Part shown: piece after piece, positions 7,363 to 62,444 of the stretch
Numbering within the stretch: the stretch's first letter is position 1
Layout: every line of letters starts with the position of its first letter
Translations under genes and position numbers: made by a program
The notes under the pieces: generated by a model
Seen by the model: only the letters and a program-made list of their open reading frames with translations
Told to the model about the DNA's origin: nothing
Database searches by the model: none
DNA from: Candidatus Pacearchaeota archaeon
GTDB taxonomy: Archaea > Nanobdellota > Nanobdellia > Pacearchaeales > GW2011-AR1
Assembly (NCBI GenBank): GCA_041660485.1
Contig: JBAZWF010000001.1
Span: 474,224-538,223 of the forward strand
Length of the DNA: 64,000 nucleotides
Reading direction: 5' to 3'

Positions 7363-7423
7363 ATAATTATATTAGTTTATAGCTTAAAAATCCTTTTGAT
7401 TTCTGTTTATTACTAATTAATCT

Positions 7424-40789: not shown

Positions 40790-40828
40790 ATTATTTATTG
40801 ACGGAGATACTATATAAATGTTTCGTTT

Positions 40829-42052: not shown

Positions 42053-42053
42053 A

Positions 42054-42317: not shown

Positions 42318-42377
42318 AACCTTTTGCTTTTGCTTAAATATTTCAGCATAAGGAAAACCTAAGAAAATCTTAAAAAA

Positions 42378-42734
42378 ATGGAAGATAAAAATCAACAAAC
42401 TTATTCCTCATGCAGGTTATGTATAGATTACTCTCCACACTATTCCTCAAGAGAAAAGGGATTCTGTCAAAGAGTAGATGATGCAAATTTTGTCTTTCCA
42501 GCTTACACAGACTCAAGGTTTGAGTGCCATTTTAATAGCCCAAGACATCTAATTTCAGAGCAAGAAGCAGAACAAAGATACCAAGAGGTCCAAGCCAGAC
42601 ACGAGTCTTTTACAAAGTCCTTAGAACAAGCATCAAAGATTGTTCAAAGTTGGCCTGCTTGGAAACAGCAACTTATGCACGAGATAATCCGCCCCCAATA
42701 CGGGCCTAACCTAAGAAAAAATCAGCCAGACTAA
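42378..42734 (+). CDS. hypothetical Cys/His-containing protein
   Basis: 118-aa ORF; 'CRLC...H..........C....' is a possible metal site. Confidence 0.4.
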   Translation: MEDKNQQTYSSCRLCIDYSPHYSSREKGFCQRVDDANFVFPAYTDSRFECHFNSPRHLISEQEAEQRYQEVQARHESFTKSLEQASKIVQSWPAWKQQLMHEIIRPQYGPNLRKNQPD

Positions 42735-42784
42735 TTTTTCTCTATTCCCGACGGAAAACCCCTCATAAATCGCAATATTTATAT

Positions 42785-42833
42785 ACTAAGGGCACCTATA
42801 ATGCACGTGAACAAGGCATTTTATGCCCTTAGT
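42785..42833. promoter_or_regulatory. 10-bp perfect inverted repeat actaagggca / tgcccttagt (29-nt spacer) carrying the recurrent CCCTTAGTGCAC motif
   Basis: Read directly. Related imperfect copy at 41565..41597; CCCTTAGT also at 41184..41191. Confidence 0.55.
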
Positions 42834-42955
42834 GCACGAATATTAGTTAAAGATTAAGTCAATTGACTAATAAAAATATAAAAAAAGAGAAAAATTACAA
42901 GCTAAAACATTTAGTCAAAAACTAAAAGTTTCAGCATGAATAAGTAATACCTAAA

Positions 42956-43630
42956 ATGATAAAAAAATTTAAAAAAGTAGTGGATAAACACCCATCTAAA
43001 CACCTGTTTAAAAGTCAAACAAATACTAAAGAAATTAAAGTAATTATTTTTGATGTTGGAGGAGTTTTGCTAAAAAGTAGAAACAAGTCTATACATGAAT
43101 ATATGTCTAAAAAATTAAAAGTTAGCTTAGAAGATTGGTTTGACTCAATTGAACAATACTGGGATGAAATGATAAAAGATGAATCAACAACTAACTATGG
43201 GTTAACCCAAATAGCAAGACATTATCATATTCCCAAGTATAAATTAGAAGCTATGTTTACTAAAGGTTTTAAAAAAATATTTAGAAAAGACTATAGAATG
43301 TTCAGACTTTTAAAAAAGCTAAAGAAAACCTATAAAATAGCTATACTTTCAGACCAGCTACTAATGTCTTATAATGCCTTTAAAAAATATAGATTTGATG
43401 AAAGAGTTGATTTAGCTATTTGGTCTCATAAAGAAGGGGTTAGAAAACCAAATATTGAAATTTATCAACTTATTGTTAAGCGCTTAAAAGTTCCTGCTGA
43501 AAGTTGTCTGTTTATTGACAACCGGGACTGGAATTTAATACCTGCAAAAAAAATTGGCATGAAGTTTATTCTTTTTCAAAATTTTAGACAGTTGTTTAAT
43601 CAGCTTAAAGTTTTGGGGGTGAAAATATGA
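42956..43630 (+). CDS. HAD-superfamily hydrolase
   Basis: Motif I variant 'IIFDVGGVL', 'ILSDQ', 'KPNIEIY', 'FIDNRDWN'. ATGA overlap with the recombinase gene. Confidence 0.7.
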   Translation: MIKKFKKVVDKHPSKHLFKSQTNTKEIKVIIFDVGGVLLKSRNKSIHEYMSKKLKVSLEDWFDSIEQYWDEMIKDESTTNYGLTQIARHYHIPKYKLEAMFTKGFKKIFRKDYRMFRLLKKLKKTYKIAILSDQLLMSYNAFKKYRFDERVDLAIWSHKEGVRKPNIEIYQLIVKRLKVPAESCLFIDNRDWNLIPAKKIGMKFILFQNFRQLFNQLKVLGVKI

Positions 43631-44379
43631 CTAACCCCTTAGCAGCAATTTATATAAGAGTTTCAACAGAAGATCAGGTAAAATTTGGAATTTCTCTAAA
43701 TGCCCAACAAGAAGCACTTGAAAACTATTGCAAAGCATTAAGCTATGATATTTTTAAGCTCTATAAAGATGAAGGAAAATCAGGCAAGGATCTCACCCAT
43801 CGCCCAGCAATGCAAGAAATGTTAAGGGATGCAGAATCTCATAAATTTCAAGCAATTTTTATTTATAAGCTTGATAGATTTTCAAGAAGTTTAATGGATT
43901 TAATAACTACAATTGACAAACTTAAAACTTTAGGGGTTGATTTTGTTTCTCTACAAGATAAACTTGAAACAACTTCTGCATCAGGTAAATTAATGTTTCA
44001 TATTATCTCTGCATTTGCAGAATTTGAAAGAAATGTTACAAGTGAAAGGACTAAGTTTACCATGTCAAAAAAAGCCCGTGATGGAAGCGTTGTAACCCGT
44101 GCACCTTTAGGCTATAAAATATCTGATAAAAAGCTAGTTCCTGCTGAAAATTCTTTTATCATCTCTGAAATTTATCATAGTTTTATTAATAACAATATAA
44201 GCCTAACTCAACTAAGCAAGAAGTATAATCTTTCTGTTAATGGGCTGAAAAAAGTTCTTACAAATCAGACATATTTAGGTAAAATAAAGTTTAGCGGAGG
44301 AATTTCCCAAGGCACTCATCCTCCTCTTCTTTCAGAAGAGCTTTTTAATAAAGTTCAGGGAAAGCTAAATAAAAGTTAA
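43627..44379 (+). CDS. serine recombinase (resolvase/invertase-type catalytic domain + C-terminal extension)
   Basis: 'AAIYIRVSTEDQ' (catalytic Ser), 'YKLDRFSRS', 'AEFERNVTSERTK'. Confidence 0.85.
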   Translation: MTNPLAAIYIRVSTEDQVKFGISLNAQQEALENYCKALSYDIFKLYKDEGKSGKDLTHRPAMQEMLRDAESHKFQAIFIYKLDRFSRSLMDLITTIDKLKTLGVDFVSLQDKLETTSASGKLMFHIISAFAEFERNVTSERTKFTMSKKARDGSVVTRAPLGYKISDKKLVPAENSFIISEIYHSFINNNISLTQLSKKYNLSVNGLKKVLTNQTYLGKIKFSGGISQGTHPPLLSEELFNKVQGKLNKS

Positions 44380-44403
44380 ATAAAAATCAATTAATTCTAA
44401 TCT

Positions 44404-50758: not shown

Positions 50759-50923
50759 TCATAACCTAGTAGAAATAAAGAAACCAATTACTCCTCCACC
50801 AATTACTCCTAGAGTTCTATCTATACCTATCGCTCCAGCAATAAAATAACCAAGTATAGACCCAATTATAGTAAATAATACTGGGGGTGAAGTTACAGCT
50901 TGTAATTGTGCTTTTTTATTCAT
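50759..50923 (-). CDS. 54-aa 2-TM Gly-rich miniprotein (below ORF-track cutoff)
   Basis: My own translation: MNKKAQLQAVTSPPVLFTIIGSILGYFIAGAIGIDRTLGVIGGGVIGFFISTRL*. SD GGAGGG upstream; ATGA overlap with the stop of 50920..51132. Confidence 0.45.
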   Translation of the reverse strand: MNKKAQLQAVTSPPVLFTIIGSILGYFIAGAIGIDRTLGVIGGGVIGFFISTRL

Positions 50924-51132
50924 TTTTTCTCCCTCCAAATATATACCCCTATACCACCAAGGGTAGTACCAATAATAAAAGTGATTAATGGCAAAACTTC
51001 ATTTGAGGGGACTTTTTGAATAATGATGTAAGTAAAAGAAGCTAATACAAACACTATAACAAAGATGAGTGTCAATATTCTTAGCAAGTTTTTAACAGCT
51101 CTATCATTATAAAGAAATCCTTTCTTTTCCAT
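50920..51132 (-). CDS. 70-aa 2-TM miniprotein
   Basis: ORF track; two hydrophobic helices with basic termini. Confidence 0.5.
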   Translation of the reverse strand: MEKKGFLYNDRAVKNLLRILTLIFVIVFVLASFTYIIIQKVPSNEVLPLITFIIGTTLGGIGVYIWREKK

Positions 51133-51202
51133 GTTCTTGCATTGTTATTATACAATTATTCACCCTATTTATTTATGAAAACCTATTATAAAAAACTATC
51201 AT

Positions 51203-51901
51203 TTATGGGGATTCATCCCCTTTAAAGTACTTAATGGCAAATTCTCTTACAAATTTGTCTATTTCTAAGAAAATGGGGATTGCTTTAATTTTATCTTCTT
51301 CGCTCTTAACTGCTTGTGCTATAGGTCTAAATTCTTTTGAACTCTTAAACATTAATGGTTGTCCTTTTATTAATTCTTTTCTCGCTTGTTCTTCTGTAAT
51401 TTTTCCACTTGTAACTAATCCAGCTAATTCTATCAATTTCTCAACAGCATTTGGAACTTCCCATGTTGGAACATATTTATCTTTAGTTAGTTTAATTTTG
51501 TTATAGTGAGCGTAAGGATTTCTTAACTCGTCTCTTTTAGATTCCAAAAAGTTTAACTCTTCTGGAATTAAACAATTTAACGATTTACATTTAGAAATAG
51601 CGTTCCCAAAATTCATTTTTTCTATTTCTTCATCTTTTACACCTTCGATAAATAATTTTTCTTTTGTAATAACCTCTAAAAGTATACCACAAAGAACCAA
51701 TGAAGCATTATAAAATCCATAAGCAGTTAAAAAATAAGCCTGAAAATATAAGGCTCTTAAATGACTTTCCATAAATGGAAGTTCTTCGTTTGGTAATTTA
51801 TCGAGATTTTCATTCAACTTTACTTTTAAGTTTTCTAATTCTATCTCAATCAATTTATTCTTATCCTCAAAGAGTTTATTTGTCATCTCTTTCACCACCA
51901 T
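51203..51901 (-). CDS. HEPN-motif protein (putative RNase)
   Basis: 'RDELRNPYAHYNK' gives R-x4-H (RNxxAH variant) in a predicted all-helical protein. 26-nt overlap with the upstream gene. Confidence 0.5.
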   Translation of the reverse strand: MVVKEMTNKLFEDKNKLIEIELENLKVKLNENLDKLPNEELPFMESHLRALYFQAYFLTAYGFYNASLVLCGILLEVITKEKLFIEGVKDEEIEKMNFGNAISKCKSLNCLIPEELNFLESKRDELRNPYAHYNKIKLTKDKYVPTWEVPNAVEKLIELAGLVTSGKITEEQARKELIKGQPLMFKSSKEFRPIAQAVKSEEDKIKAIPIFLEIDKFVREFAIKYFKGDESP

Positions 51902-52202
51902 TTAACAATGCAAATATACAAGTCACCAAGACAACACATAGAATATATGCTCCAAATGTTTTAGCAGGTTCAGTTAATAAGTCAACCCACCAAGGTAGTA
52001 AATTAAATGCCGTTGACTCTCCAAATTTTTCTAATAAGCTAGGAGTTTTAAAAACTATATACAAAATTGATAGTATAAACCACTTAATTATTGGTAAAGA
52101 TAACAGTAGACCAAATGATAGTGTTAAAATTCTCCACCAATTATGTATAAATACTTCTAAAAGAAAATTCAATGATGTTTCTATTTCTTCCCAGTCAACC
52201 AT
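51876..52202 (-). CDS. 3-TM membrane protein
   Basis: 108-aa ORF; its start abuts the rhomboid stop (52203/52202). Confidence 0.5.
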   Translation of the reverse strand: MVDWEEIETSLNFLLEVFIHNWWRILTLSFGLLLSLPIIKWFILSILYIVFKTPSLLEKFGESTAFNLLPWWVDLLTEPAKTFGAYILCVVLVTCIFALLNGGERDDK

Positions 52203-53120
52203 TTAATCTCTCCATTTCTTATTTATAAAAATGAAATAACTACCGCAAACAATAATCCCATAAGCTATTCCTATATAGTGCATAAAGAAATCAATAAATG
52301 TTCCACTCTTAAACATAAGATTGAAAGATGGAAAAATAATTTTTGGTGTCATAAAGAAAAGTATGGGTGTAGTAATTAAAAAGAATGCCCATATAACTCC
52401 CCTCTTTGATTCTTTTGATATTTCAATTATAATATTTTTAATATTAGAAATTAAGGTTAATAGAAATATGAAAAATAAAATTGACACAAAAATAAGCAGA
52501 CTTGATAAGCCCTTGCTGTAATAAAAGACAAATAATAAAGCTACATATATCATACAAAATAAACTTGTTCTTACATCAAAACTAATCTTATTGTCTATTT
52601 TATTAAAATACATTGCCCAAAAGATTATTGTAAATCCTGCTAATGCAGATACTATGCCAGACGCTCCTGCTGAATGTTGTAGATTAGGAAGCCAGCTTAA
52701 GATGATTGGATATAATTTCACTTGGATAAATGAGCTTAGTATTGGTAATGAGATTACTAAGAATAAAAATAACCTGTAGAACTCCTTTTTCAAGTTCAAT
52801 TTATTAACAAATATTATTATTAATATTAAATACAAAAAATATCCAAATAGATTGGAACTTAAATGACTCCAACTATTATGAACAAATGATTGAGTAAGAT
52901 ATTGCCACCAAATAGGGTTTTTAATATCAAGTTGTAGTATATTCCTAATATTCAAAGGAAGAATCATAATTAGAGTCGTTAAAACAGGAAGTATTAACAT
53001 AAGCACAATATCTACCTTGTTTATTCCTTTAATTAATTCTAAGACTTGTGTCTTTAAGGAGGAGATGCTTAATTGTCTTTTCAGTTCTTCCTTAACATTT
53101 CTAAAGTTAAACTTCTGCAT
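52203..53120 (-). CDS. rhomboid-family intramembrane serine protease
   Basis: 'WWQYLTQSFVHNSWSHLSSNLFGYF' (W.xxT..F.H....H...N), 'HSAGASGIVSALAG' (GxSG) and 'MHYIGIAYG' (HxxGxxxG). All three signatures are present in a 6-7 TM protein. Confidence 0.75.
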   Translation of the reverse strand: MQKFNFRNVKEELKRQLSISSLKTQVLELIKGINKVDIVLMLILPVLTTLIMILPLNIRNILQLDIKNPIWWQYLTQSFVHNSWSHLSSNLFGYFLYLILIIIFVNKLNLKKEFYRLFLFLVISLPILSSFIQVKLYPIILSWLPNLQHSAGASGIVSALAGFTIIFWAMYFNKIDNKISFDVRTSLFCMIYVALLFVFYYSKGLSSLLIFVSILFFIFLLTLISNIKNIIIEISKESKRGVIWAFFLITTPILFFMTPKIIFPSFNLMFKSGTFIDFFMHYIGIAYGIIVCGSYFIFINKKWRD

Positions 53121-53157
53121 ATCTACCCTAATAAAATGATGCTATAAAGAATTTTCG

Positions 53158-54066
53158 TTATTTGTTTTCTTCAACTTTTTTCTTCAAATCTTCAAGTTCC
53201 TTTTTCAATTCCTCAAGTTCCTTCTCTTGTTTTGCTATATCTTCCTTACTAAAATAAGGTACATCTTTTAACGACTTCAATTTTGCTAGATGTTCTTCTT
53301 TATTCTTCTTCAAAATTTCAAGTTCAGTTATTCTTTTTACCATTGTTCTAAGCGCTCTATTGACCTCTATATCTGTTTTAACATTCAAACATAAAGACAA
53401 TACTTCAAATATTTCTAAGACCCTATCTTTGAACACCTCTTCTTTTAGTGGAAATTCTGCTTCCATTAGGTTAATAGATGGACCTTCAAAATAATATTTT
53501 GGTTTTCTTTTATCTCTTTCATTTAAACCTTGCTCTCTAATGTTATTTCCCAATTTTATTATCTCATCAACAATCGTATCGTTTATTTGATTAGAACTCC
53601 ATTCCTTCTCCAATTTGTAAGTGGGTGTTTGAGCATAATTAAATTCTTTAATTTTCCTTTGAATGTTTATTTTCCAATCATTATTGAGGTTTGTAAGTTT
53701 ATTAGAGATTTTATTTTTAACATCTTTATTCAATCCCCTCATTATTGTTTTGAATCTTTCATAAGACCTAAGATTGTTAAATGTCAAACCTAATCTACCT
53801 GTGCCTTCTAAGTTGCCTTCTCTACTTAATACATCAAAGAAAACATTAGGTTCATCTTTAGCTATTGCAACATCACGAGTTTCATCTTTTTGACAAAACA
53901 TAAGCCAATTCTCTTGACTTACAATATCAAAAATTTCTTCGTTGGTCCTAGAAGGAATAATCTCTTCATTCTTTATAGTCTCTTTTGCTAAGTTATACCA
54001 TTTAGCATACACTTTTTTGTCTACTAATTTTGTTCTATCTTTAGCCATTTTATTCTCCATCTTCAC
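53158..54066 (-). CDS. hypothetical protein with C-terminal coiled coil
   Basis: 302-aa ORF with the tail 'KQEKELEELKKELEDLKKKVEENK' and no recognisable catalytic motif. 17-nt overlap with the upstream nuclease gene. Confidence 0.55.
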   Translation of the reverse strand: MKMENKMAKDRTKLVDKKVYAKWYNLAKETIKNEEIIPSRTNEEIFDIVSQENWLMFCQKDETRDVAIAKDEPNVFFDVLSREGNLEGTGRLGLTFNNLRSYERFKTIMRGLNKDVKNKISNKLTNLNNDWKINIQRKIKEFNYAQTPTYKLEKEWSSNQINDTIVDEIIKLGNNIREQGLNERDKRKPKYYFEGPSINLMEAEFPLKEEVFKDRVLEIFEVLSLCLNVKTDIEVNRALRTMVKRITELEILKKNKEEHLAKLKSLKDVPYFSKEDIAKQEKELEELKKELEDLKKKVEENK

Positions 54067-54730
54067 TTTCTATTAAGCGACACCATTCACACTCTTCTTC
54101 TTTCCCACTATCTTTTGGACAAGGTCCACATAATAATTTGAGTGCTTTATTCCATACCTTTTCTGCATTTTTAACATTGATTTGAAGTTTTAATAATTTT
54201 GTATCAAAGATTACTTCGCCAGTAGTGGTAACTTCCTTAGGAATATAGAACAATAAAAAGCCATAGTCTTCTGTTTCATAACCATTCTTCCTTAATAAGA
54301 AGTTGTAAGTATCTAATTGCAATCTATAGTGTTCATGAGTATCTTCTTTAAGTGGGAAGCCACGAGTTTTATAATCCAAAACTATTAGTTTTTTTCCTTT
54401 CATTAAAATGTTATCAACAGCACCATGTAATATGTTTCCTTCTTCGTCCGCCCATGTGATACCTTTAAGGTTATTTCTCCATACTTTCAATAATTCTTTG
54501 TTATCAAATAGTTTACAATCCTTACAATCACCATTCTCTTTTAATTCAGGTGGTAGTTCATTCTTATCTCTAAACTTATCAAAGTGTGTTTTCAGTATGT
54601 TGTCCATTCCAGAGGGTAAGCTTGGAAATATAGAATCGGGTCTCTTCTTATGTTCATTTTGATGTAACCAAAAACATCTAGGGCATTCCTCCATAAGATT
54701 GAGTGATGATGGTGACAATTTGAATACCAT
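54050..54730 (-). CDS. Cas4/RecB-like PD-(D/E)XK nuclease with Fe-S cysteines
   Basis: 'EECPRCFW' (N-terminal Cys), 'HGAVDNIL...LIVLDYKTR' (D...DxK), 'YRLQLDTYNFLL' (QxxxY), 'CGPCPKDSGKEEECEWC' (C-terminal Cys cluster). The likely start is ATG 54730 ('MVFKLSPSSL'); the ORF track extends to 54796. Confidence 0.7.
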   Translation of the reverse strand: MVFKLSPSSLNLMEECPRCFWLHQNEHKKRPDSIFPSLPSGMDNILKTHFDKFRDKNELPPELKENGDCKDCKLFDNKELLKVWRNNLKGITWADEEGNILHGAVDNILMKGKKLIVLDYKTRGFPLKEDTHEHYRLQLDTYNFLLRKNGYETEDYGFLLFYIPKEVTTTGEVIFDTKLLKLQINVKNAEKVWNKALKLLCGPCPKDSGKEEECEWCRLIESEDGE

Positions 54731-54893
54731 TTTAGTCACTAGAATTAAGATAGAGAGGTTATAAAAGTCTTTGGATTTCACCCCATAGAAAACCATTAGT
54801 GAACTTATTATTCTTTCCTATAAGTCATTTATGGAAATAAATAAGAATGTTTATAAGATAAGTATACTCTAATTTTAATAAGAGAAACTTAAA

Positions 54894-55071: not shown

Positions 55072-55356
55072 TTATTCACAATCATCCACAATTTTAATCT
55101 TATTTGGTTTCTTTTTCTTCTCTTTAGAATACTTCCATTTTTGGATTTTGAGGTATAGTAACTTTACTTCTTTCTTATTTAACTTAGGATAAGCTAGTTG
55201 TAAGTCTTCCTCATCATAATCACTCCTATCTTCTAATAGGTCTTCTTTAAGAAAGGAATTGAACAACTTATCAACCTTCTTTTTGTTAATTGTTTGTTTA
55301 TTATTTTTCATAATAAAATAAAAAGAAGCTGGATTATAAAGATTGCTCGACGACAA
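55072..55356 (-). CDS. hypothetical Lys/Asp/Glu-rich protein
   Basis: 94-aa ORF. Confidence 0.4.
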   Translation of the reverse strand: MSSSNLYNPASFYFIMKNNKQTINKKKVDKLFNSFLKEDLLEDRSDYDEEDLQLAYPKLNKKEVKLLYLKIQKWKYSKEKKKKPNKIKIVDDCE

Positions 55357-55877: not shown

Positions 55878-55910
55878 ATATGAATGAAGTTAAACTTTTG
55901 GGAGGGTTTA
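55878..55910 (+). repeat. 33-bp direct repeat, copy 1
   Basis: atatgaatgaagttaaacttttgggagggttta; 32/33 identical to 56037..56069. Confidence 0.8.
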
Positions 55911-56036: not shown

Positions 56037-56069
56037 ATATGAATGAAGTTAAACTTTTGGGAGTGTTTA
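56037..56069 (+). repeat. 33-bp direct repeat, copy 2
   Basis: atatgaatgaagttaaacttttgggagtgttta; 159 bp downstream of copy 1 and 140 bp upstream of the REase ATG. Confidence 0.8.
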
Positions 56070-56208: not shown

Positions 56209-57264
56209 ATGGAATGTGAGTTTAAGCAAGAAGACTTCAAGCGACTAATCTATTGGATTACTCTAAAGTTTAAAGAAGATGAATTCCATCACCAAGCAGC
56301 ATCTACTAAGAGCGATTTAATTGGTGGTTTCTTCGATAGATGGTTTAATAGGGCTTCAGAATTTATAATCTTTCGAGAACTATTAAAGAACAAAGACTAT
56401 GATGTTGTGATTGATAACTTCTTATATGGCCAAGATACAAAGAAGAATGCTCCTGATGTCATTGGATTGAAAGATAGGAAAGAGAATACTCTAGTTCAAT
56501 TTACACTTTTTAATAATGGAGATTGGGAAGTAATTCCTTCAATGCCGTTTATTGAAGTAAAAACTAATAGAGAGAAACAAAAGTTAATATCTATTGGAGA
56601 TACACAAATGAATAAAGACCATTATTATGTTATTGTGGAGTCTCACATTAGGGAAGATTATCTTATAACCCTTTTTGAAGATTCTGTTTTTAGTCAAGAC
56701 ACATTTAATTCTTTAAAAGTTAGTAAAGACTTTATAAAATCTGATGCTAACAATCAAATAATCACACCTAAACCCTTGCAAATTAAAAAGAATCTAGGTT
56801 CATTTAGACTTATTGGGATTTTTAGCGGTGAGGAAATAAAGAAGTATTGTTTATTAGTTGGAGTTGATGGAGAGGGAAATACACAAAAACCATACTATTT
56901 TGATACTATTGAGAAGACAAAACCCAATTCTAATGATGGAGAGGAAATAAAAGAAGGTTGTTATTCCTATGGTGGTGAGTACATTCCTTTTTGTATAGAA
57001 TTCGTTGATAAGAAATCAAAGGTTAGTCTAGTAAAGAGATTGAAAGGTCATATGGTTATTAATGTTGAAGGAACTATTAAGATAAATGGAATTGAAGCAA
57101 GTGATGGGTTCTATAAAGTGATGTTTAAAAAATTTGATAGAAGCTCTAAAAAGAAGGAATATATTGGAGATAAATATCTATTTGATTGTATCGCCGTAGA
57201 TAAAACAAACGAACTTATCTCCAAATTTGACGATTTAGTAAAGAAAGCAAAGTCTAAAAGATAG
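56209..57264 (+). CDS. putative type II restriction endonuclease (PD-(D/E)XK candidate)
   Basis: Position next to vsr and convergent with a C5-MTase. 'APDVIGL...(about 30 aa)...FIEVKT' fits PD...ExK. No other family assignment is possible by eye. Confidence 0.5.
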   Translation: MECEFKQEDFKRLIYWITLKFKEDEFHHQAASTKSDLIGGFFDRWFNRASEFIIFRELLKNKDYDVVIDNFLYGQDTKKNAPDVIGLKDRKENTLVQFTLFNNGDWEVIPSMPFIEVKTNREKQKLISIGDTQMNKDHYYVIVESHIREDYLITLFEDSVFSQDTFNSLKVSKDFIKSDANNQIITPKPLQIKKNLGSFRLIGIFSGEEIKKYCLLVGVDGEGNTQKPYYFDTIEKTKPNSNDGEEIKEGCYSYGGEYIPFCIEFVDKKSKVSLVKRLKGHMVINVEGTIKINGIEASDGFYKVMFKKFDRSSKKKEYIGDKYLFDCIAVDKTNELISKFDDLVKKAKSKR

Positions 57265-57281
57265 TTTACTCTACTTCTATT

Positions 57282-57629
57282 ATGGTTGATAATCTAACTA
57301 GCAGTCAAAGAAGTTATTGTATGTCTAAGATTAGAAGTAAAAATACTTCGCCAGAATTAATCTTAAAGAAACAATTTAAATCATGGGTTTATCAACCAAA
57401 AGAATTTGGAAAGCCCGACTTTATTGATTATAAAAAGAAGTTGGTGGTATTTATTGATGGATGTTTTTGGCATAAGTGTCCTATTCATGGAAACAAGCCC
57501 AAGTCAAATAAAAAATATTGGCTTCCTAAATTAGAAAGAAATGTTATTAGAGATAGAGAAGTAGATTTAACATACAAATTCGCTGGATGGAAAACTAAAA
57601 GAATTTGGGAACACGAGTTAGGTAATTAG
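57282..57629 (+). CDS. vsr: very-short-patch repair endonuclease
   Basis: 'RSYCMSKIRSKNTSPE', 'GKPDFI', 'VFIDGCFWHKCP', 'YWLPKLERNVIRD', 'GWKTKRIWEHE' read as the Vsr signature. Confidence 0.9.
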   Translation: MVDNLTSSQRSYCMSKIRSKNTSPELILKKQFKSWVYQPKEFGKPDFIDYKKKLVVFIDGCFWHKCPIHGNKPKSNKKYWLPKLERNVIRDREVDLTYKFAGWKTKRIWEHELGN

Positions 57630-57634
57630 ATTGT

Positions 57635-58615
57635 TTAGCTTTCTGCGCATAATACCATCATCATATTATTAGCTATTCTTTCAATAACTGGAACAACTAC
57701 ACTATTTCCAGCTTGATGATATAATTTACTATCGGCTAATTGAGGAAGTTTAAACTCTTTTGGAAATCCCTGCAATGAAAAACATTCTTTAGGCGTGAGC
57801 TTCCTAATTCCTTTTCCATTTTTTATTATTGGAACATTGTGTCCTCCAAGCCCCATATTTGCTGTTAGTGTTGGACAAACTCCTTTCTTATTAGCTCTAA
57901 CATACTTTCTTCTCCATTGATAAACAGTCTCTTCGGAGTTAATGTCATTCTTTATTCTTTCATAAAGAGGTTTATCATTATAGTAGTATTTATCACCAGC
58001 TTCATTTGCTACATATTCTTTAAAACTTTTTGTTAATTTTATTTCATCTGGAAAATTAAAAGCTTCTGATTTAGATTTGTCTAAGAACCCCACAATAAAT
58101 ATTCTCTCTCTATTCTGCGGGACATTTCCATGAGTCATACTATTAAGAACTTCTGTTTTAACGTGGTATCCCAATTTTTCCAATGTTTCTTTTATAACCT
58201 TAAAGGTGTTTCCTTTGTCGTGTCCTTTTAGATTTTTTACATTCTCAAGAAGTATTGCTTTAGGTTTTTTAGCTTCTATAATTTCTGCAATTCTAAAGAA
58301 CAAATTGCCTCTTCCTTTTTCATCTTTAAATCCTTCCATATAACCTGCAACAGAAAAGGGCTGGCATGGGAATCCTCCAAGTAGAATATCAAAAATTGGA
58401 AGTGTGCTAAGGTCTAATTTATTTACATCTTCAGTGTTAAGCTTTGGTTCTGAAAAATTTAAGTCATAAGTCTCTTTACACGTTTTATCAAAATCATTTG
58501 AAAATACCGTAACGAAACCCGCTTTCTCAAATCCTAATCTTATACCGCCTACTCCTGCAAATAAGTCAATAGTTCTAAACTCTTTTTTCGCCATATTATT
58601 GTTATGTTTCACCAT
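57635..58615 (-). CDS. dcm: DNA (cytosine-5)-methyltransferase
   Basis: Motif I 'DLFAGVGG', IV 'GGFPCQPFS', VI 'LLENVKNL', VIII 'QNRERIFIVG', X 'AGNSVVVPV'. Confidence 0.95.
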   Translation of the reverse strand: MVKHNNNMAKKEFRTIDLFAGVGGIRLGFEKAGFVTVFSNDFDKTCKETYDLNFSEPKLNTEDVNKLDLSTLPIFDILLGGFPCQPFSVAGYMEGFKDEKGRGNLFFRIAEIIEAKKPKAILLENVKNLKGHDKGNTFKVIKETLEKLGYHVKTEVLNSMTHGNVPQNRERIFIVGFLDKSKSEAFNFPDEIKLTKSFKEYVANEAGDKYYYNDKPLYERIKNDINSEETVYQWRRKYVRANKKGVCPTLTANMGLGGHNVPIIKNGKGIRKLTPKECFSLQGFPKEFKLPQLADSKLYHQAGNSVVVPVIERIANNMMMVLCAES

Positions 58616-58618: not shown

Positions 58619-59146
58619 TTAATCTTTATTATAACGTAAATAATAGCCTCCTTTGTTCCTATATTTTTTATCTTTAGACCCAATAGGTCTACCTAATTTC
58701 TTACCTTCTTTCTTTCTTCTCTCTAATCCTAATTTGATTCGTTCTTTTAAAACTTCCCTTTCCATTTCTCCAAAACTGGCGAGTATAGTGAAGAAGAATT
58801 TACCCATAGGAGAGAAAGTATCTATATTCTGACTCGTAGCTATTAAACGAACCTCCTTATTTTTTAACTCTTCTAAGACTTGTAAAAGGTGTTGTGTGCT
58901 TCGCCCGAGTCTATCAAATTTCCAAACAATAATAGTGTCAAAACATTTATTTCTCATATCTTGCAACATAATATCTAATTGTGGCCTAGATGTCTTCACG
59001 CCAGAAACACCCTCATCTTTGTATACTTTAAAGATTTCATAACTTTCTCTTTCACAATAAGCTTTAAGTTCTAGTTCTTGATTTAAAGTAGTTTGGTCGT
59101 TAGTTGAAACTCTTGTATATATTGCACATATTTTTTTATTTTCCAT
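58619..59146 (-). CDS. small serine recombinase (resolvase/invertase catalytic domain)
   Basis: 'CAIYTRVSTNDQ', 'WKFDRLGRS', 'GEMEREVLKERIK'. Starts 3 nt after... that is, lies directly downstream of the MTase gene on the same strand. Confidence 0.85.
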   Translation of the reverse strand: MENKKICAIYTRVSTNDQTTLNQELELKAYCERESYEIFKVYKDEGVSGVKTSRPQLDIMLQDMRNKCFDTIIVWKFDRLGRSTQHLLQVLEELKNKEVRLIATSQNIDTFSPMGKFFFTILASFGEMEREVLKERIKLGLERRKKEGKKLGRPIGSKDKKYRNKGGYYLRYNKD

Positions 59147-59299
59147 TTACGAATCTCCTTCAATCAGTTTTAAATTAACAATAATTAATATTAATAACAA
59201 TGCTACAAACCACCAATACTCTTTAATTCTAAATGAGTTTATAGTTACAACTACCAAAACAATATCAACAACCAATATCAACTCTTTATTGTATTCCAT
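59147..59299 (-). CDS. small TM miniprotein
   Basis: ORF track 59147..59332. The internal ATG at 59299 ('MEYNKE') reduces the overlap with the upstream ORF. Two hydrophobic helices. Confidence 0.35.
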   Translation of the reverse strand: MEYNKELILVVDIVLVVVTINSFRIKEYWWFVALLLILIIVNLKLIEGDS

Positions 59300-59492
59300 T
59301 TTGTGATTTTGTATCTCCTTTATTTTTTTCAAGAAGCTTGAAAATTATTATTAATAAAATAATGATTAGTATAAGTGAAATCATTCCCCAAACTGCTAAA
59401 ACCAAAACAACATCACCTAAGTAAGTTTTTTGTAAACACTCAATTCCACTTATAGTATTGTTAATTGTTTGATTCATTTTTACCCCCATCAT
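59286..59492 (-). CDS. small TM miniprotein
   Basis: 68-aa ORF with one long hydrophobic helix. Confidence 0.35.
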   Translation of the reverse strand: MMGVKMNQTINNTISGIECLQKTYLGDVVLVLAVWGMISLILIIILLIIIFKLLEKNKGDTKSQNGIQ

Positions 59493-59498
59493 TATTTA

Positions 59499-59577
59499 CT
59501 TTGGAAGCACTTAGATATTCAGCAAGAGCGGTCCATCTCCCAACATGGCATATTATTTTATCCTCATGCTTCCAAAG
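59499..59577. repeat. 11-bp perfect inverted repeat ctttggaagca / tgcttccaaag with 57-nt relatively GC-richer spacer
   Basis: Read directly. It occupies the whole intergenic gap between 59492 and 59579. Confidence 0.7.
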
Positions 59578-59578
59578 A

Positions 59579-59782
59579 TTATTCTTTTTCATTTTCATCT
59601 CCTTTAGTTGATTGAATCATTCCAATAAAGTCACATTCTACATCTGCCATGTCCCCATATTTATCAATAATCTCAAAAGATGTTCCATTAAATTTTGGAA
59701 TTGTTGCAGTGTAATTGTAATTATTTTTTAAAACAATTTTACATCTTTTACCAATATATTTTTTTACAGACTCAACATCCAT
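59579..59782 (-). CDS. small hypothetical protein
   Basis: 67-aa ORF; 11-nt overlap with the upstream ORF. Confidence 0.4.
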   Translation of the reverse strand: MDVESVKKYIGKRCKIVLKNNYNYTATIPKFNGTSFEIIDKYGDMADVECDFIGMIQSTKGDENEKE

Positions 59783-60059
59783 TTTCTAATTCCTCCCTTT
59801 GTTTAATAGAGTAATTTTCTAATTTAGTTTGAGGATTTAGCCAAGTGAATTTATAACCATTAAAGTGACCATCAAAATCTATAAGACCCTCTACCTCGAC
59901 CTTATCTCCAATTTTGAATCTATTAGGTATGAACCTACAATAAATTCTAACTCCACTATCCAATATGAACTCACAACTATCTTGGTAAATTGATTTGTTT
60001 TTGGAAACAATTTCTTTAATTCTTCCAACTACAACATCTAACTCTCTTTCTTCAATCAT
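59772..60059 (-). CDS. small hypothetical protein
   Basis: 95-aa ORF within the operon. Confidence 0.4.
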   Translation of the reverse strand: MIEERELDVVVGRIKEIVSKNKSIYQDSCEFILDSGVRIYCRFIPNRFKIGDKVEVEGLIDFDGHFNGYKFTWLNPQTKLENYSIKQREELENGC

Positions 60060-60286
60060 CTTAATATGACCTCCTTAGTTTTATACAGATTATACTTAGT
60101 GTCAAAATCAATCATATTTGATGAAAATCCACCTAAACTTATACGTATAATTAGTAATGAAGAAAAATCATTTATACACCTTATACTCTTTATACACCTA
60201 TCTTTACGTATCTTATCTATAAAGAAGCCTAAGTAAGAAGAAGTGTATAATTGGTATAATCTGTAATACCTATTAATTTTCATCAT
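60056..60286 (-). CDS. small hypothetical protein (doubtful)
   Basis: 76-aa ORF bridging the primase stop and the next gene. Odd composition. Confidence 0.25.
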   Translation of the reverse strand: MMKINRYYRLYQLYTSSYLGFFIDKIRKDRCIKSIRCINDFSSLLIIRISLGGFSSNMIDFDTKYNLYKTKEVILR

Positions 60287-62444
60287 TTTTTACACCCTCC
60301 TTTAATTTTATACCAATTCTAAATCTTTGAGAGGAAGTCCCAATAGGAATTACTTTTGATTCATAACCCATATTTGTGAGTATTCTCCCCACCATATTAT
60401 CGCTCATTTCTTTGTGACCATTCGTTTCTAAGAATAATTTATACTCTTCATAAAAGTCTCCAAATTGTACTCTAAACTCCTTCCCAATGTCACATTTAGC
60501 CCTAATAAAATGACTAATGGGGTTACTTCGTTCTTTGTATCTTTCTTCTCTTTGTTCAATACTTCCATCATTAACAAATTCACCTCTTTGTAAAAGTTCT
60601 CTTAAGATTTTTGGTATTTGTTTACAAAAATTACTAAATTCTTGCTCAGGTACATCCTTTATGATGTCTTTCTTTTCATTAAATTGGTTGGGAAAATCAA
60701 CTATAGTCCATCTTCTATAGAATCCTTTAGAATTATCAGTAGACTCTGGCAGTGCGTTTGTAGCAATGATTGGTGTAGCATATAAGTGGGCATTCCAAGA
60801 ATCTTTGCCTTTAAATTCAATAGGGAGTAAATCATCGCCAGACAATGCTTTTAACAAAGCTGTCCTGCTAAAAATACTCTTATCTATTTCTCCAATAATA
60901 GCTACTAATTTTTTATAAAGTTTAGAGGTTTCAAATTGTCCTTTAGTTAATCTTTCAATAGTGGTAGATGTTGCGTTTTCTTCACCAACAAATTTTTCTA
61001 TTAATCTTAAATATGAACCTTTGCCATTTAGACCACTTCCAATTAAACAAAATATTCTATGTATTGGAATATAGGTTAGAGTACAATAGGCCATAATTTC
61101 CTTTAATGTTGTTACATACTCTTTTCCAACCCATTCTTCAAATATTCTATCTAAATTTGGTGTTTCTTCACTCTCTCCTATTTGCCAAGGAAGAGGATTA
61201 GTTATAAAATATTCTGGAGTTGCTGGAAAATAATTCCCATTTTCTATATCAACAATAGTGTCGTAAAATTGAACCCAAACTTTTTTTGGTTCCTTTGGAG
61301 TATTTAACCTTCCTACTCTCTTTAATGCCTCAAGGATTTTCCCCTTAATTTTTGAATCAATAGTTCCACTCCATTTTAAGCCCCTATCAATTTCATTCAT
61401 TACATCGACGTCATCAACAATCTCCCATTTAAAATTAGCATGATTCCAAAACCACCAAAGGTGATGCTTGTCATAAAAGTAGGGTTGGTCCATTAAGAAT
61501 ATTTTAGCCATAAGTTGATAGTCAACTTGTATTATCCCTTGCGGGCTTGATTTGAAAATAGAGGAGTATCTACCATCATCACTTAAACCAGCTTTCTCAA
61601 TTAATTTGTGTATTGCTTCTTTTCTTGAGATACTTTCTAATTCAGCTACAAAATCAATAATGTTTCCACTCTTACCACATGAACTTGCAAAACATTTAAA
61701 CCAACCTAAAGCATCGTTCAAACTTAAACTTGGGTGTTTGTCATTATGAAAAGGACAATGATAATTATTTGTTTCTTTTCCTTTTATAACTCCATATTCA
61801 TTTGCTAAATCAGTTATCTTTATTTTTTCTTTAATCTTATCAGTTATGCTTGTGGTCCTTTTAGAATCAATTTTTTTCTCAATTACTTCCTCTTTCCCAT
61901 ATTTTTCATCTTCTACATCTATAATAAGCCCACCTTTATTTTTAATTAAATCCTTTATGGTTCCATATTTATAATGTGGTGAATAAGGAACTGCTATTAA
62001 ATGAGAACCACATAAACTAGTATCAACAAATTCCCAACTATCTTTAGGGAAGTAATACTTTAATATTGATTCCTTCTTATTTTTGTTAGCTTCTTTATTT
62101 AGAAATAAATGTATGTGGGGACATTTTCCTTTATGGTCAAATAAGTCATAACCTACATTCTCGCTTTCCAATTTAGCAATCGTTTCATCAATCCATTTAT
62201 ATCTCTCTTCTTTAGTACATACTTTTCCCCTATTCTCTTTAATTTTGCTTTCCTCGTCAATTTCTCCAACCAATTCATTTTCATTAATCTCAATTAGATT
62301 AATTTGAGGGTCATATTTTTCATCTCTATAATCCTTCTTCCATTTAGATTTGTCAATATTCTCTTTCTTATCACAAACCTTATACCTCTTGCCTTCATGT
62401 GATTTAAGCCATTCTCTATGTTTATTTTGTATTTGTTCTTCCAT
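60273..62444 (-). CDS. replicative primase-helicase: AEP/prim-pol-like N-terminus + CHC2 zinc finger + D5/P4-type SF3 helicase
   Basis: 'CPFHNDKHPSLSLN....FKCFASSCGKSGNIIDF' (zf-CHC2). 'IGSGLNGKGS' (Walker A), 'VAIIGEID' (Walker B) and 'FYRRWTIVDF' (P4-primase C-terminal pattern). N-terminal 'GEIDEE', 'CPHIHLF' and 'FVDTS' are candidate AEP motifs. Confidence 0.85.
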   Translation of the reverse strand: MEEQIQNKHREWLKSHEGKRYKVCDKKENIDKSKWKKDYRDEKYDPQINLIEINENELVGEIDEESKIKENRGKVCTKEERYKWIDETIAKLESENVGYDLFDHKGKCPHIHLFLNKEANKNKKESILKYYFPKDSWEFVDTSLCGSHLIAVPYSPHYKYGTIKDLIKNKGGLIIDVEDEKYGKEEVIEKKIDSKRTTSITDKIKEKIKITDLANEYGVIKGKETNNYHCPFHNDKHPSLSLNDALGWFKCFASSCGKSGNIIDFVAELESISRKEAIHKLIEKAGLSDDGRYSSIFKSSPQGIIQVDYQLMAKIFLMDQPYFYDKHHLWWFWNHANFKWEIVDDVDVMNEIDRGLKWSGTIDSKIKGKILEALKRVGRLNTPKEPKKVWVQFYDTIVDIENGNYFPATPEYFITNPLPWQIGESEETPNLDRIFEEWVGKEYVTTLKEIMAYCTLTYIPIHRIFCLIGSGLNGKGSYLRLIEKFVGEENATSTTIERLTKGQFETSKLYKKLVAIIGEIDKSIFSRTALLKALSGDDLLPIEFKGKDSWNAHLYATPIIATNALPESTDNSKGFYRRWTIVDFPNQFNEKKDIIKDVPEQEFSNFCKQIPKILRELLQRGEFVNDGSIEQREERYKERSNPISHFIRAKCDIGKEFRVQFGDFYEEYKLFLETNGHKEMSDNMVGRILTNMGYESKVIPIGTSSQRFRIGIKLKEGVKNDEN

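What the first reader, a model, noticed from the sequence alone, without database searches (positions are those of the whole stretch)
50759..54796. Seven-gene operon: Cas4-like nuclease, coiled-coil protein, rhomboid protease, 3-TM protein, HEPN-motif protein and two 2-TM miniproteins; candidate undescribed defence / abortive-infection-type system
All seven ORFs are on the minus strand with overlapping or abutting boundaries, so they read as one translationally coupled unit. The junctions are a 17-nt overlap at 54050-54066, contiguous genes at 52203/52202, a 26-nt overlap at 51876-51901, and an ATGA overlap at 50920-50923. Motifs read directly from the sequence: (i) 54050..54730 has CPRC, D...LDYKT, QLDTY and CGPC..CEWC, which fits a Cas4/RecB-type Fe-S PD-(D/E)XK nuclease. 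(ii) 52203..53120 carries the complete rhomboid catalytic signature (HNSWSHLSSN, GASG, HYIGIAYG). (iii) 51203..51901 has LRNPYAH, which fits the Rx4H HEPN RNase motif. (iv) Three small membrane proteins of 108, 70 and 54 aa complete the unit. The operon sits on a mobile element about 1.4 kb from a REase-Vsr-Dcm module, which is a defence-island-like context. I know of no described defence system that couples an intramembrane protease with a HEPN protein and a Cas4-like nuclease. One testable model is a membrane-sensing protease that releases or activates nuclease effectors. An alternative reading is a provirus membrane/virion module, because 2-TM miniproteins resemble the capsid proteins of spindle-shaped or pleomorphic archaeal viruses.
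Basis: partly seen in the sequence, partly recalled or inferred. Interest (0 to 1): 0.85.

Follow-up and report, generated by a model that had tools for sequence, protein, structure and literature searches.

The report
Mosaic restriction-linked gene island, not one system
The seven genes are real and three domain calls hold, but in related DPANN archaea they occur separately, usually beside restriction-modification genes, so this looks like a patchwork variable island; only the rhomboid protease and its small membrane partner always travel together.

Summary
The seven minus-strand ORFs exist as described, in a Pacearchaeota-type DPANN chromosome. Three domain calls hold. The first is a Cas4-like PD-(D/E)XK nuclease. 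The second is a rhomboid with an invariant His/His/Asn, GxSG and HxxGxxxG signature. The third is a HEPN-like protein whose Ex3K and R[N/D]x3H motifs are near-invariant across 125 representatives.

The single-system reading fails its own test. In 80 other species genomes that carry the nuclease, none of the other six genes lies within 10 kb. The HEPN-like protein, the 296-aa coiled-coil protein and the rhomboid each turn up in different contexts. These are most often inside or abutting restriction-modification operons, on elements that carry integrases or Rep genes.

Only rhomboid plus the 108-aa protein is a constant, tightly abutting pair. Nuclease-then-rhomboid adjacency recurs in three contexts. 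The 70- and 54-aa proteins have no detectable relatives in the sequences examined.

Best reading: a mosaic variable or defence island of independently mobile, restriction-linked accessory genes. The HEPN protein resembles the PrrC-type arrangement in position. The link between a rhomboid pair and restriction-modification genes appears undescribed and is the part worth following. Interest is moderate.

The parts
54050..54796 (-). A: Cas4-like PD-(D/E)XK nuclease with CxxC...CxxC cysteines. The likely true start is M23 at 54730.
   Evidence: Pfam PDDEXK_1 2.4e-12 and Cas_Cas4 9.2e-5. PADLOC Cas4 profiles reach down to 9.5e-9. TIGR00372 scores 33 bits, below its cut-off of 65. phrog_31195 matches at 2.6e-38. 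In 84 sequences C38, C41, D128, D141, K143, Q160, Y164, C236 and C239 are each kept in at least 95%. The genome scan found 244 relatives.
53158..54048 (-). B: 296-aa protein of unknown family, with an alpha/beta N-terminal domain and a C-terminal coiled coil.
   Evidence: 37 homologue clusters. No Pfam, PADLOC, PHROG or PDB sequence match apart from coiled-coil noise. The AF2 model has pLDDT 88. Foldseek against PDB gives nothing better than E = 0.18. In L094/L095 it lies inside a type I R-M operon. In L096 it is a lone gene between rpoA and rpS12.
52203..53120 (-). C: divergent rhomboid-family intramembrane serine protease with about 8 hydrophobic segments.
   Evidence: Pfam Rhomboid 3.4e-5, 24.5 bits against a cut-off of 22.6. 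H81, H86, N90, G152, S154, G155, H281 and G288 are invariant in 18 homologues; G284 is nearly so, at 90% or more. Ser154 and His281 are 127 residues apart.
51876..52202 (-). D: 108-aa membrane protein that is the obligate partner of the rhomboid.
   Evidence: A homologue follows the rhomboid stop codon with a 1-nt spacer (abutting in the window) in L088, L092, L097, L098 and L099, within about 20-50 nt in L102 and L112, and overlaps it in L090. It has two strong hydrophobic segments. No D-like ORF follows the 36-41%-identity rhomboids whose downstream sequence was read (L105, L107, L109, L110, L111).
51203..51901 (-). E: HEPN-like protein carrying Ex3K and R[N/D]x3H motifs.
   Evidence: R127, Y130, H132 and E76 are invariant in 36 homologues. 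E76, K/R80, R127, N/D128 and H132 are kept in 121-124 of 125 representatives out of 161 clusters. DUF4145 matches below threshold in 10 of 36 members. phrog_1305 matches at 1.3e-5. It lies next to or inside R-M modules in L002-L005 and L088.
50920..51132 (-). F: 70-aa two-TM miniprotein with no detected relatives.
   Evidence: Two hydrophobic segments. Only sub-threshold family matches in Pfam and NCBIfam, and none in PADLOC or PHROGs. No tblastn relative in 113 loci.
50759..50923 (-). G: 54-aa glycine-zipper membrane miniprotein.
   Evidence: The Pfam glycine-zipper 2TM family matches at 7.6e-4, below its cut-off. The start/stop ATGA overlaps with F. The only possible relative is a 64-aa protein upstream of the nuclease in L099, and that match is not significant.
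55072..55356 (-). 94-aa acidic/basic small protein upstream of A. It belongs to the same shuffled gene pool.
   Evidence: Homologues at 59-68% identity lie directly after the HEPN-like gene in L097 and L098, which is a different order from the window.
56209..58615 (.). Neighbouring type II R-M-like module: a 351-aa candidate REase (+), Vsr (+) and Dcm (-).
   Evidence: Vsr matches PADLOC at 1.9e-11. Dcm matches TIGR00675 at 7.5e-100. The 351-aa ORF matches no family.
58619..62444 (-). Mobile-element genes: a serine resolvase (58619-59146) and a CHC2 zinc-finger primase/DUF5906 protein (60273-62444).
   Evidence: Pfam Resolvase 1.4e-44, Zn_ribbon_DnaG 1.7e-18 and DUF5906 5.3e-17.

Best explanation
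The cluster is a mosaic stretch of a variable, defence-island-like region in the chromosome of a Pacearchaeota-type DPANN archaeon. It is made of at least four independently mobile units that happen to be stacked head to tail here:
- A, a stand-alone Cas4-like Fe-S or Zn PD-(D/E)XK nuclease.
- B, a protein of unknown fold with a coiled-coil tail.
- C-D, a catalytically intact but divergent rhomboid protease with a small membrane partner. This is the only obligate pair.
- E, a HEPN-like protein and presumed metal-independent RNase.
- F and G, two orphan miniproteins.

In other genomes each unit is found on its own. The usual setting is abutting or embedded in type I, II, IIG or III restriction-modification operons, on elements that carry integrases, resolvases or Rep genes.

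Shown: the shuffling, the link to restriction-modification genes, and the conservation of the motifs.

Inferred: that these are accessory 'restriction-linked' genes of the kind known from PrrC and other HEPN proteins embedded in hsd operons. Under that reading E would be a latent RNase toxin acting as a second line of defence or as an addiction module. C-D would be a membrane module in which the protease processes, or is controlled by, its partner. There is no evidence that the protease activates the nucleases.
For: Host identity: PolD DP1/DP2 and Cdc6 are present and GC is 28%. A 100%-identical protein is named as coming from a Candidatus Pacearchaeota MAG.

A (nuclease):
- 244 relatives at about 60-76% identity in GTDB species genomes.
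- In the 80 loci kept, with up to 10 kb of flank on each side where the contig allowed, none of B-G is present at E <= 1e-5. Only noise appears at E <= 1.
- Its neighbours are mostly unique. An HsdM/Eco57I-type methylase cluster is present within 5 kb in 18 loci and an N6_N4 methylase cluster in 10.
- Methylase density is about 2.0 per 10 kb within 300 nt of A, against 0.2-0.3 per 10 kb at 2.5-10 kb.

E (HEPN-like), by context:
- L002: Dcm, R-HinP1I and Vsr adjacent.
- L003: N6_N4 methylase and HinfI.
- L004: between a DUF4145 protein and HsdS in a type I operon.
- L005: N6_N4 methylase and an HNH nuclease.
- L088: between HsdR and HsdS.
- L006, at 84% identity: no shared neighbour with the window.

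B (coiled-coil protein): the order in L094 is HsdM-138aa-122aa-HsdS-139aa-B-HsdR, next to an integrase.

C-D (rhomboid pair): always paired where the rhomboid is at least about 58% identical and the downstream sequence is intact. Its neighbours are:
- HsdM in L088.
- An N6_N4 methylase in L090 and L109.
- A methylase, a helicase, DUF4238 and Rep_1 in L092.
- An EcoRI-type methylase and GmrSD-HNH in L097.
- A complete type I operon in L099.
- A methylase-like ORF with an NPPY motif, unannotated by any tool, in L107.
- A divergently oriented methylase-like ORF with a DPPF motif, likewise unannotated, in L104.

Gene order differs even among relatives at 80-86% identity. L097 has C-D-E-94aa, L098 has C-D-152aa-E-94aa, and the window has 94aa-A-B-C-D-E.

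HEPN hallmarks: Ex3[KR] and Rx4-6H with a polar residue after the Arg are the defining motifs listed in PMC3710099. Both are near-invariant in E's superfamily. That paper also records DUF4145, PrrC and ApeA HEPN proteins in R-M operons.

Background: R-M systems are reported as under-represented in DPANN archaea (PMC12988326). The adjacency is therefore unlikely to be a background effect.
Against: - Nuclease-then-rhomboid adjacency recurs in three contexts: the window (with B between them), L099, and L105/L106, where the rhomboid is only 41% identical. That hints at more than chance stacking for A plus C.
- C-D-E are contiguous in L097 and nearly so in L098.
- Context samples for B (2 independent) and E (about 9) are small.
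- Methylase detection by tblastn was incomplete.
- No transcript data exist. The tight spacing could still mean co-transcription and functional cross-talk in this particular genome.
- No defence function has been tested for any component.
- PADLOC finds nothing apart from Cas4 and DruK nuclease profiles on A and the Vsr profile.
Confidence: 0.7

Rival explanations
1. A smaller real system is hidden in the cluster. The Cas4-like nuclease together with the rhomboid and its partner (A + C-D) would form a functional module that rides with restriction-modification systems. B would be an insertion into it in this genome.
For: A is immediately upstream of C, on the same strand, with gaps of 14-26 nt, in L099 (A 70%, C 77% identity) and in L105/L106 (A 61%, C 41%). 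In the window only B intervenes. In L092/L093 a different small protein with a faint PDDEXK_5 hit sits two genes upstream of C.
Against: None of 80 A-bearing species genomes has C within 10 kb. Most C contexts lack A: L088, L090, L092, L097, L098, L103, L104, L107 and L109. Both families are independently drawn to methylase genes, which by itself raises chance adjacency. D is missing in the L105 case.
Confidence: 0.13
2. One reading: one seven-gene defence or abortive-infection system in which a membrane-sensing rhomboid releases or activates the HEPN and Cas4-like nuclease effectors.
For: The genes are co-directional and tightly spaced in the window. Plausible effector domains are present. 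The setting is defence-island-like.
Against: The set is found nowhere else except on an identical contig. Components occur separately in dozens of genomes. A, B and E have no predicted TM segment that a rhomboid could cut; E's one borderline window at 57-75 falls in a predicted bundle helix. F and G have no relatives at all.
Confidence: 0.04
3. A provirus or plasmid membrane/virion module. The small two-TM proteins would be capsid or envelope proteins, and the rhomboid would process them.
For: The region adjoins resolvase and primase genes. One IMG/VR contig (L113) carries an A homologue next to small TM proteins and a large Asn/Ser/Thr-rich protein. A matches phrog_31195.
Against: B, C, D, F and G have no PHROG match. 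B, C and E have no relatives in INPHARED phages or IMG/VR contigs. F and G have no match to any ORF of L113. C-D sits in chromosomal R-M operons beside housekeeping genes.
Confidence: 0.05
4. Ordinary housekeeping genes that are packed together only because DPANN genomes are gene-dense. No defence or mobile role.
For: DPANN genomes are compact. Downstream neighbours (PAP2, DUF1003, SNase, dihydroorotate dehydrogenase) look like ordinary cellular genes. Some A and C loci sit beside ribosomal, gyrase or tRNA-synthetase genes.
Against: Distribution is patchy: 18 rhomboid clusters and 37 clusters for B among 5.8 billion proteins. Synteny is absent at 60-85% identity. Methylase genes are strongly enriched directly next to A and C. 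Integrases or Rep genes are nearby.
Confidence: 0.08

Closest known systems
HEPN RNases embedded in or linked to restriction-modification operons (PrrC in the type Ic prr locus; DUF4145, ApeA and EC042_2821 families; Anantharaman et al. 2013, PMC3710099)
   Same: E carries both HEPN sequence hallmarks, Ex3K and R[N/D]x3H. It sits between hsdR and hsdS in two type I operons (L004, L088) and abuts type II methylase/REase pairs in three others. It also gives weak DUF4145 matches.
   Different: There is no ABC-ATPase regulator domain as in PrrC/RloC. No Pfam family reaches threshold, and ten distant relatives spread across the E-value range have no DUF4145 hit. No structural match was found. In the window itself E is 4.3 kb from the nearest R-M gene. 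RNase activity is untested.
Cas4 / RecB-family PD-(D/E)XK nucleases with an Fe-S cluster (Pfam PF01930 and PF12705), including the stand-alone Cas4-like nucleases of archaeal viruses
   Same: The D...(D/E)xK and QxxxY motifs and four invariant cysteines flanking the nuclease core. Matches to Cas4 profiles in Pfam, PADLOC and NCBIfam.
   Different: No cas1, cas2 or CRISPR array nearby. TIGR00372 scores 33 bits against a cut-off of 65. The cysteines are arranged 2+2 (CxxC...CxxC). Canonical Cas4 has 1+3; that comparison rests on my own knowledge. Its frequent neighbours are DNA methylases, not cas genes.
Rhomboid intramembrane serine proteases (GlpG type; Pfam PF01694) and rhombosortase (TIGR03902)
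   Same: The TM2 HxxxxHxxxN, TM4 GxSG and last-TM HxxGxxxG signatures are invariant. The Pfam Rhomboid score is above the gathering cut-off.
   Different: The Pfam match covers only model positions 4-119 of 143. Ser and His are 127 residues apart, which implies about two extra TM segments. In GlpG the spacing is about 53 residues (my own knowledge). The rhombosortase score is far below its cut-off (25 against 84 bits), and there is no GlyGly-CTERM partner. The gene always comes with a 71-108-aa membrane partner and is usually beside R-M genes, which I have not seen described. Two literature searches found nothing.
Defence islands and 'restriction-linked ORFs' in hsd loci
   Same: Unrelated accessory genes shuffle around R-M genes, mobile-element genes lie nearby, and order differs between close relatives.
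   Different: None of B, C-D, E, F or G belongs to a described defence family (PADLOC has no hit). The host is a DPANN archaeon, a group reported to be poor in R-M systems.

Membership tests
HEPN superfamily (protein E) | An Rx4-6H motif with a polar residue (N, D or H) immediately after the Arg | tested here: met
   The motif is R127-N-P-Y-A-H132. R is kept in 124 of 125 representatives, N/D in 123 and H in 121. The motif is invariant in 36 close homologues. The criterion is taken from PMC3710099.
HEPN superfamily (protein E) | An upstream conserved acidic residue within an Ex3[KR] motif | tested here: met
   The motif is E76-V-I-T-K80. E is kept in 123 of 125 representatives and K/R in 121.
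HEPN superfamily (protein E) | A significant profile match to a HEPN-clan family such as DUF4145 (PF13643) | tested here: inconclusive
   The DUF4145 match is E = 0.029, 14.9 bits against a cut-off of 23.1. Ten of 36 members match below threshold. hhalign against one true DUF4145 protein gives E = 0.4. Ten distant relatives have no DUF4145 hit.
HEPN superfamily (protein E) | A four-helix up-down bundle fold that matches solved HEPN structures | tested here: inconclusive
   The AF2 model is confident (pLDDT 87) and mainly helical. Foldseek gives no hit with E < 0.1 in PDB or BFVD. The model coordinates could not be inspected.
HEPN superfamily (protein E) | Metal-independent endoRNase activity | not testable with these tools
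   This needs biochemistry.
Cas4 (CRISPR adaptation nuclease) (protein A) | PD-(D/E)XK core motifs including QxxxY | tested here: met
   D128, D141-Y-K143 and Q160...Y164 are kept in at least 95% of 84 sequences. PDDEXK_1 matches at 2.4e-12.
Cas4 (CRISPR adaptation nuclease) (protein A) | Four cluster-binding cysteines | tested here: met
   C38, C41, C236 and C239 are invariant. Their arrangement is CxxC...CxxC. Whether they bind Fe-S or Zn is unknown.
Cas4 (CRISPR adaptation nuclease) (protein A) | A score above the curated equivalog cut-off | tested here: not met
   TIGR00372 scores 33.4 bits against a cut-off of 65.
Cas4 (CRISPR adaptation nuclease) (protein A) | Genomic association with cas1/cas2 or a CRISPR array | tested here: not met
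   No cas genes were found among the window ORFs scanned around A. In 80 related loci no cas-like family appeared among the recurrent neighbour clusters inspected; the neighbours are methylases, HsdR, HEPN, Fic or housekeeping genes. A CRISPR array was not looked for.
Rhomboid protease family (protein C) | A catalytic Ser in GxSG and a catalytic His in a later TM helix with a GxxxG-type motif | tested here: met
   G152, S154, G155, H281 and G288 are invariant in 18 homologues; G284 is kept in at least 90%.
Rhomboid protease family (protein C) | The TM2 HxxxxHxxxN motif | tested here: met
   H81, H86 and N90 are invariant.
Rhomboid protease family (protein C) | A Pfam PF01694 score above the gathering threshold | tested here: met
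   24.5 bits against 22.6, so the margin is narrow. The match covers model positions 4-119 of 143. Ten of 18 homologues carry a precomputed PF01694 hit.
Rhomboid protease family (protein C) | The canonical six-TM core topology, with Ser in TM4 and His in TM6 | not tested
   Hydropathy suggests about 8 segments, with about three between Ser154 and His281. No structure prediction was run for C.
Single multi-gene defence system (all seven genes) | Components co-occur as a conserved neighbourhood across genomes | tested here: not met
   0 of 80 A loci carry any other component. Loci for E, B and C carry different neighbours. Only C-D is constant.
Single multi-gene defence system (all seven genes) | A match to a described defence system | tested here: not met
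   PADLOC-DB matches only nuclease profiles on A (Cas4 family plus one weak DruK hit) and the Vsr profile on the neighbour.

The most novel reading that the evidence does not exclude
The rhomboid protease and its small membrane partner (C-D), sometimes joined by the Cas4-like nuclease, could be a previously undescribed restriction-modification-linked membrane module of DPANN archaea. It would be an intramembrane protease acting in defence, abortive infection or maintenance of a mobile element. One possibility is that it processes its partner into a membrane-active peptide, or senses envelope perturbation. That would make it the first rhomboid tied to prokaryotic immunity islands.
Probability: 0.22. 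Interest if true: 0.7.

Novelty: new variant of a known kind. Interest (0 to 1): 0.4.

Why it matters
The seven-gene system as proposed does not exist, so that headline claim should be dropped. What remains is useful on a smaller scale.

- DPANN archaea are reported to be poor in known defence systems. Here, several uncharacterised families cluster around their restriction-modification operons in the way PrrC-type toxins do in bacteria. These families are a new HEPN-like family with 161 clusters at 50% identity, a 296-aa protein that matched no solved structure, and a rhomboid pair.
- An intramembrane protease that travels with restriction-modification genes has, as far as I could find, not been described.
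- If the pair has a role in immunity or in stabilising mobile elements, it would add a new enzymatic class to defence-island biology. It would also give a handle on membrane-level events in episymbiotic archaea.

Tried and rejected
- **Structure of E.** Foldseek of the confident AF2 model against PDB and BFVD gave no hit below E = 0.1. Fold-level proof of HEPN was therefore not obtained.
- **Structure of B.** Foldseek of the model against PDB gave nothing. The third-ranked hit, a mimivirus Cas4-like protein at E = 0.26, is noise, and B has no (D/E)xK signature.
- **PDB sequence profiles.** Profile searches for E and B returned only coiled-coil or designed-protein noise.
- **E against DUF4145.** hhalign of the E family against a single true DUF4145 protein was not significant, although the motif regions aligned. 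Pfam scans of ten distant E relatives, meant to bridge to DUF4145, found none.
- **Metagenome scan with the rhomboid.** The first scan, with the single sequence, found nothing. It worked only with the alignment.
- **Viral collections.** Scans of viral contigs and phage records for B, C and E were all empty.
- **Element boundaries.** A search for att-like direct repeats bounding an element at 40-64 kb gave only short AT-rich chance matches.
- **Paralogues.** None of the seven genes has a paralogue in the window.
- **G against the L099 protein.** The alignment score of 57 was equalled by the best of 500 shuffles, so the similarity is unproven.
- **Not attempted.** I skipped the sigma-70 promoter scan because the organism is an archaeon.
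- **RNA genes.** No tRNA or Rfam family was found in the window.

Full report
**1. What is there**

The window is a low-GC (about 28%) archaeal chromosome segment. It encodes PolD DP2 (with an intein), DP1 and Cdc6/Orc1. A 100%-identical copy of one of the proteins is deposited from a Candidatus Pacearchaeota MAG on an 857-kb contig.

All seven minus-strand ORFs are present as described. An independent gene caller recovered them on an identical 13.7-kb contig.

Small corrections:
- The 302-aa ORF really starts at the ATG at 54048, giving 296 aa. All homologues begin MAKDR or similar. It therefore abuts the nuclease gene and does not overlap it by 17 nt.
- The nuclease probably starts at M23.
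- The last miniprotein is 54 aa.

The co-directional run continues beyond the seven genes on both sides.

**2. Domain calls**

*A (54050-54796).*
- It matches PDDEXK_1 at 2.4e-12 and Cas_Cas4 just above its cut-off. It also matches several PADLOC Cas4 profiles.
- It scores only 33 bits against a cut-off of 65 for the curated Cas4 equivalog.
- In 84 sequences D128, D141-x-K143, Q160...Y164 and four cysteines (CxxC...CxxC) are essentially invariant.
- It is a Cas4-like nuclease, not a CRISPR Cas4.

*C (52203-53120).*
- It passes the Pfam Rhomboid threshold narrowly.
- All catalytic residues are invariant in 18 homologues: H81, H86, N90, G152-x-S154-G155 and H281, and the HxxGxxxG glycines are invariant or nearly so.
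- Ser and His are 127 residues apart. Hydropathy suggests about eight membrane segments, so it is a divergent rhomboid.

*E (51203-51901).*
- It reaches only sub-threshold DUF4145 scores.
- A confident AF2 model (pLDDT 87) found no structural neighbour.
- An exhaustive profile search recovered 161 clusters. In 125 aligned representatives the two HEPN hallmarks are kept in 121-124 sequences.
- Those hallmarks, as listed by Anantharaman et al., are an acidic residue in Ex3[KR] and Rx4-6H with N or D after the Arg (PMC3710099).
- I accept E as HEPN-like at motif level. Fold and activity are unproven.

*B (53158-54048).* It has no family and no solved relative. The confident model, an alpha/beta domain plus a coiled coil, has no structural neighbour.

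*D, F and G.* They are small membrane proteins. F and G have no detectable relatives in any of the 113 loci examined.

**3. Is it one system?** No.

- *Nuclease.* It has 244 relatives in GTDB species genomes. In the best 80 loci, with up to 10 kb of flank on each side where the contig allowed, none of the other six genes is present.
- *HEPN-like protein.* It has 90 homologue clusters at 52-90% identity. Six contexts were examined, and none has the rhomboid, the nuclease or B. This holds even at 84% identity.
- *B.* It appears inside a type I operon in one context (HsdM-x-x-HsdS-x-B-HsdR, next to an integrase). In another it is a lone insertion between rpoA and rpS12.
- *Rhomboid.* The family is rare, with 18 clusters plus a few distant metagenomic relatives.
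  - Wherever the rhomboid is at least about 58% identical and the sequence downstream is intact, a homologue of D follows. It lies within a nucleotide or two of the rhomboid stop codon in the closest relatives (L088, L092, L097-L099), overlaps it in L090/L091, and lies within about 20-50 nt in L102 and L112.
  - D carries an in-frame stop in L090/L091 and is truncated in L101.
  - C-D is the only constant association.
- *Gene order in close relatives.* Even at 80-86% identity the order differs. L097 has C-D-E-94aa, L098 has C-D-152aa-E-94aa, and the window has 94aa-A-B-C-D-E.

**4. What the parts have in common**

Each unit is repeatedly found touching restriction-modification genes.

*E:*
- next to Dcm, R-HinP1I and Vsr;
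- next to an N6_N4 methylase and HinfI;
- next to an N6_N4 methylase and an HNH nuclease;
- between HsdR and HsdS in two type I operons.

*C-D:*
- directly after HsdM (L088);
- at the end of a complete type I operon, after the nuclease (L099);
- next to N6_N4 methylases (L090, L109);
- next to methylase-like ORFs in L107 and L104, which I read from their NPPY and DPPF motifs and did not annotate with a tool;
- next to an EcoRI-type methylase plus GmrSD-HNH (L097);
- next to a methylase, a helicase, DUF4238 and Rep_1 (L092).

*A:*
- HsdM/Eco57I-type or N6_N4 methylases lie within 5 kb in 18 and 10 of 80 loci respectively. Several have overlapping stop and start codons.
- Methylase density falls from about 2 per 10 kb within 300 nt to 0.2-0.3 per 10 kb beyond 2.5 kb.
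- One IMG/VR contig carries A next to an Eco57I-type fusion enzyme.

Integrases, Rep genes or resolvases are nearby in many of these loci. In the window a Vsr-Dcm module, a resolvase and a primase/DUF5906 gene lie just upstream. R-M systems are reported as under-represented in DPANN archaea (PMC12988326). This adjacency is therefore unlikely to be a background effect.

**5. Most likely mechanism**

The region is best read as a mosaic variable or defence island built from independently mobile, restriction-linked accessory genes.

For E the closest analogy is the PrrC/DUF4145/ApeA pattern. There, a HEPN RNase is embedded in an hsd operon, is held inactive by the R-M complex, and acts as a back-up toxin (PMC3710099). 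The position and the motifs are shown here. The regulation and the RNase activity are inferred.

For C-D I infer a protease with a substrate or regulator partner acting in the membrane. Nothing links it mechanistically to the nucleases. A and B show no hydrophobic segment, and E's single borderline window (57-75) lies in a helix of the predicted soluble bundle.

One observation resists a purely mosaic reading. Nuclease-then-rhomboid adjacency recurs in L099 and in L105/L106, where the rhomboid is only 41% identical, and in the window with B in between. I keep this as a rival at about 13%.

**6. Rejected readings**

- The virion-module idea found no support. There were no PHROG, phage-record or viral-contig matches for B, C, D, F or G. 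E has only one weak PHROG hit, annotated as a DNA-binding protein.
- A pure housekeeping reading is contradicted by the patchy distribution, the absence of synteny and the methylase enrichment.

**7. Novelty and verdict**

The proposed seven-gene system is not a real unit. The region is a known kind of thing, a defence or variable island with restriction-linked accessory genes, populated by uncharacterised families. The undescribed element is a catalytically intact, divergent rhomboid that always travels with a small membrane partner and usually with R-M genes. Two literature searches found no precedent. Interest is moderate at 0.4. The most novel surviving reading, that C-D is an R-M-linked membrane module, has a probability of about 0.2.

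Noticed in passing
window 29230-34170 (-): The PolD large subunit (DP2) gene carries an intein with a LAGLIDADG homing-endonuclease domain.
   Followed up: no
window 55878-55910 and 56037-56069: A 33-nt direct repeat (97% identical, 159 nt apart) lies in the intergenic region upstream of the candidate REase gene. It could be a regulatory or recombination site.
   Followed up: no
window 38800-44400: This may be a second integrated element. It has an HTH_36 protein (38854-39687), clusters of short direct repeats at 40011-40240 and 40446-40982, and a large serine recombinase (43627-44379).
   Followed up: no
   Followed up: no
L096 7652-8515: A homologue of the 296-aa coiled-coil protein sits alone between the RNA polymerase A subunit gene and rpS12, inside the conserved rpo-rps gene string. 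That looks like an insertion of a selfish gene.
   Followed up: partly
L113 (IMG/VR contig, 27 kb) 3776-7933: A viral-classified contig carries a 79%-identical copy of the Cas4-like nuclease. It is preceded by an 85-aa glycine-rich TM protein. Downstream lie an unannotated 278-aa ORF and then a HSDR_N_2 + N6_Mtase/Eco57I fusion. ORFs that look like IS200/605-type transposase genes (my reading, not annotated) and a 788-aa Asn/Ser/Thr-rich protein are nearby.
   Followed up: partly
L090/L091 (about 10906-11210) and L101 (about 2225): The rhomboid's partner gene has an in-frame stop in L090/L091 and is truncated in L101, while the rhomboid stays intact. The pair can therefore decay on the partner side.
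   Followed up: partly
L099 7274-7468: A 64-aa glycine-zipper membrane protein lies between HsdM and the nuclease. It starts MNKKAQ, as does the window's 54-aa protein, but the similarity is not significant.
   Followed up: yes
L088 8079-8495 and L094 6568-6984: Type I R-M operons of these archaea carry further small unannotated genes. Examples are 138-aa ORFs next to HsdS or HsdM, and ORFs of 125, 272 and 139 aa. These may be additional restriction-linked families.
   Followed up: no
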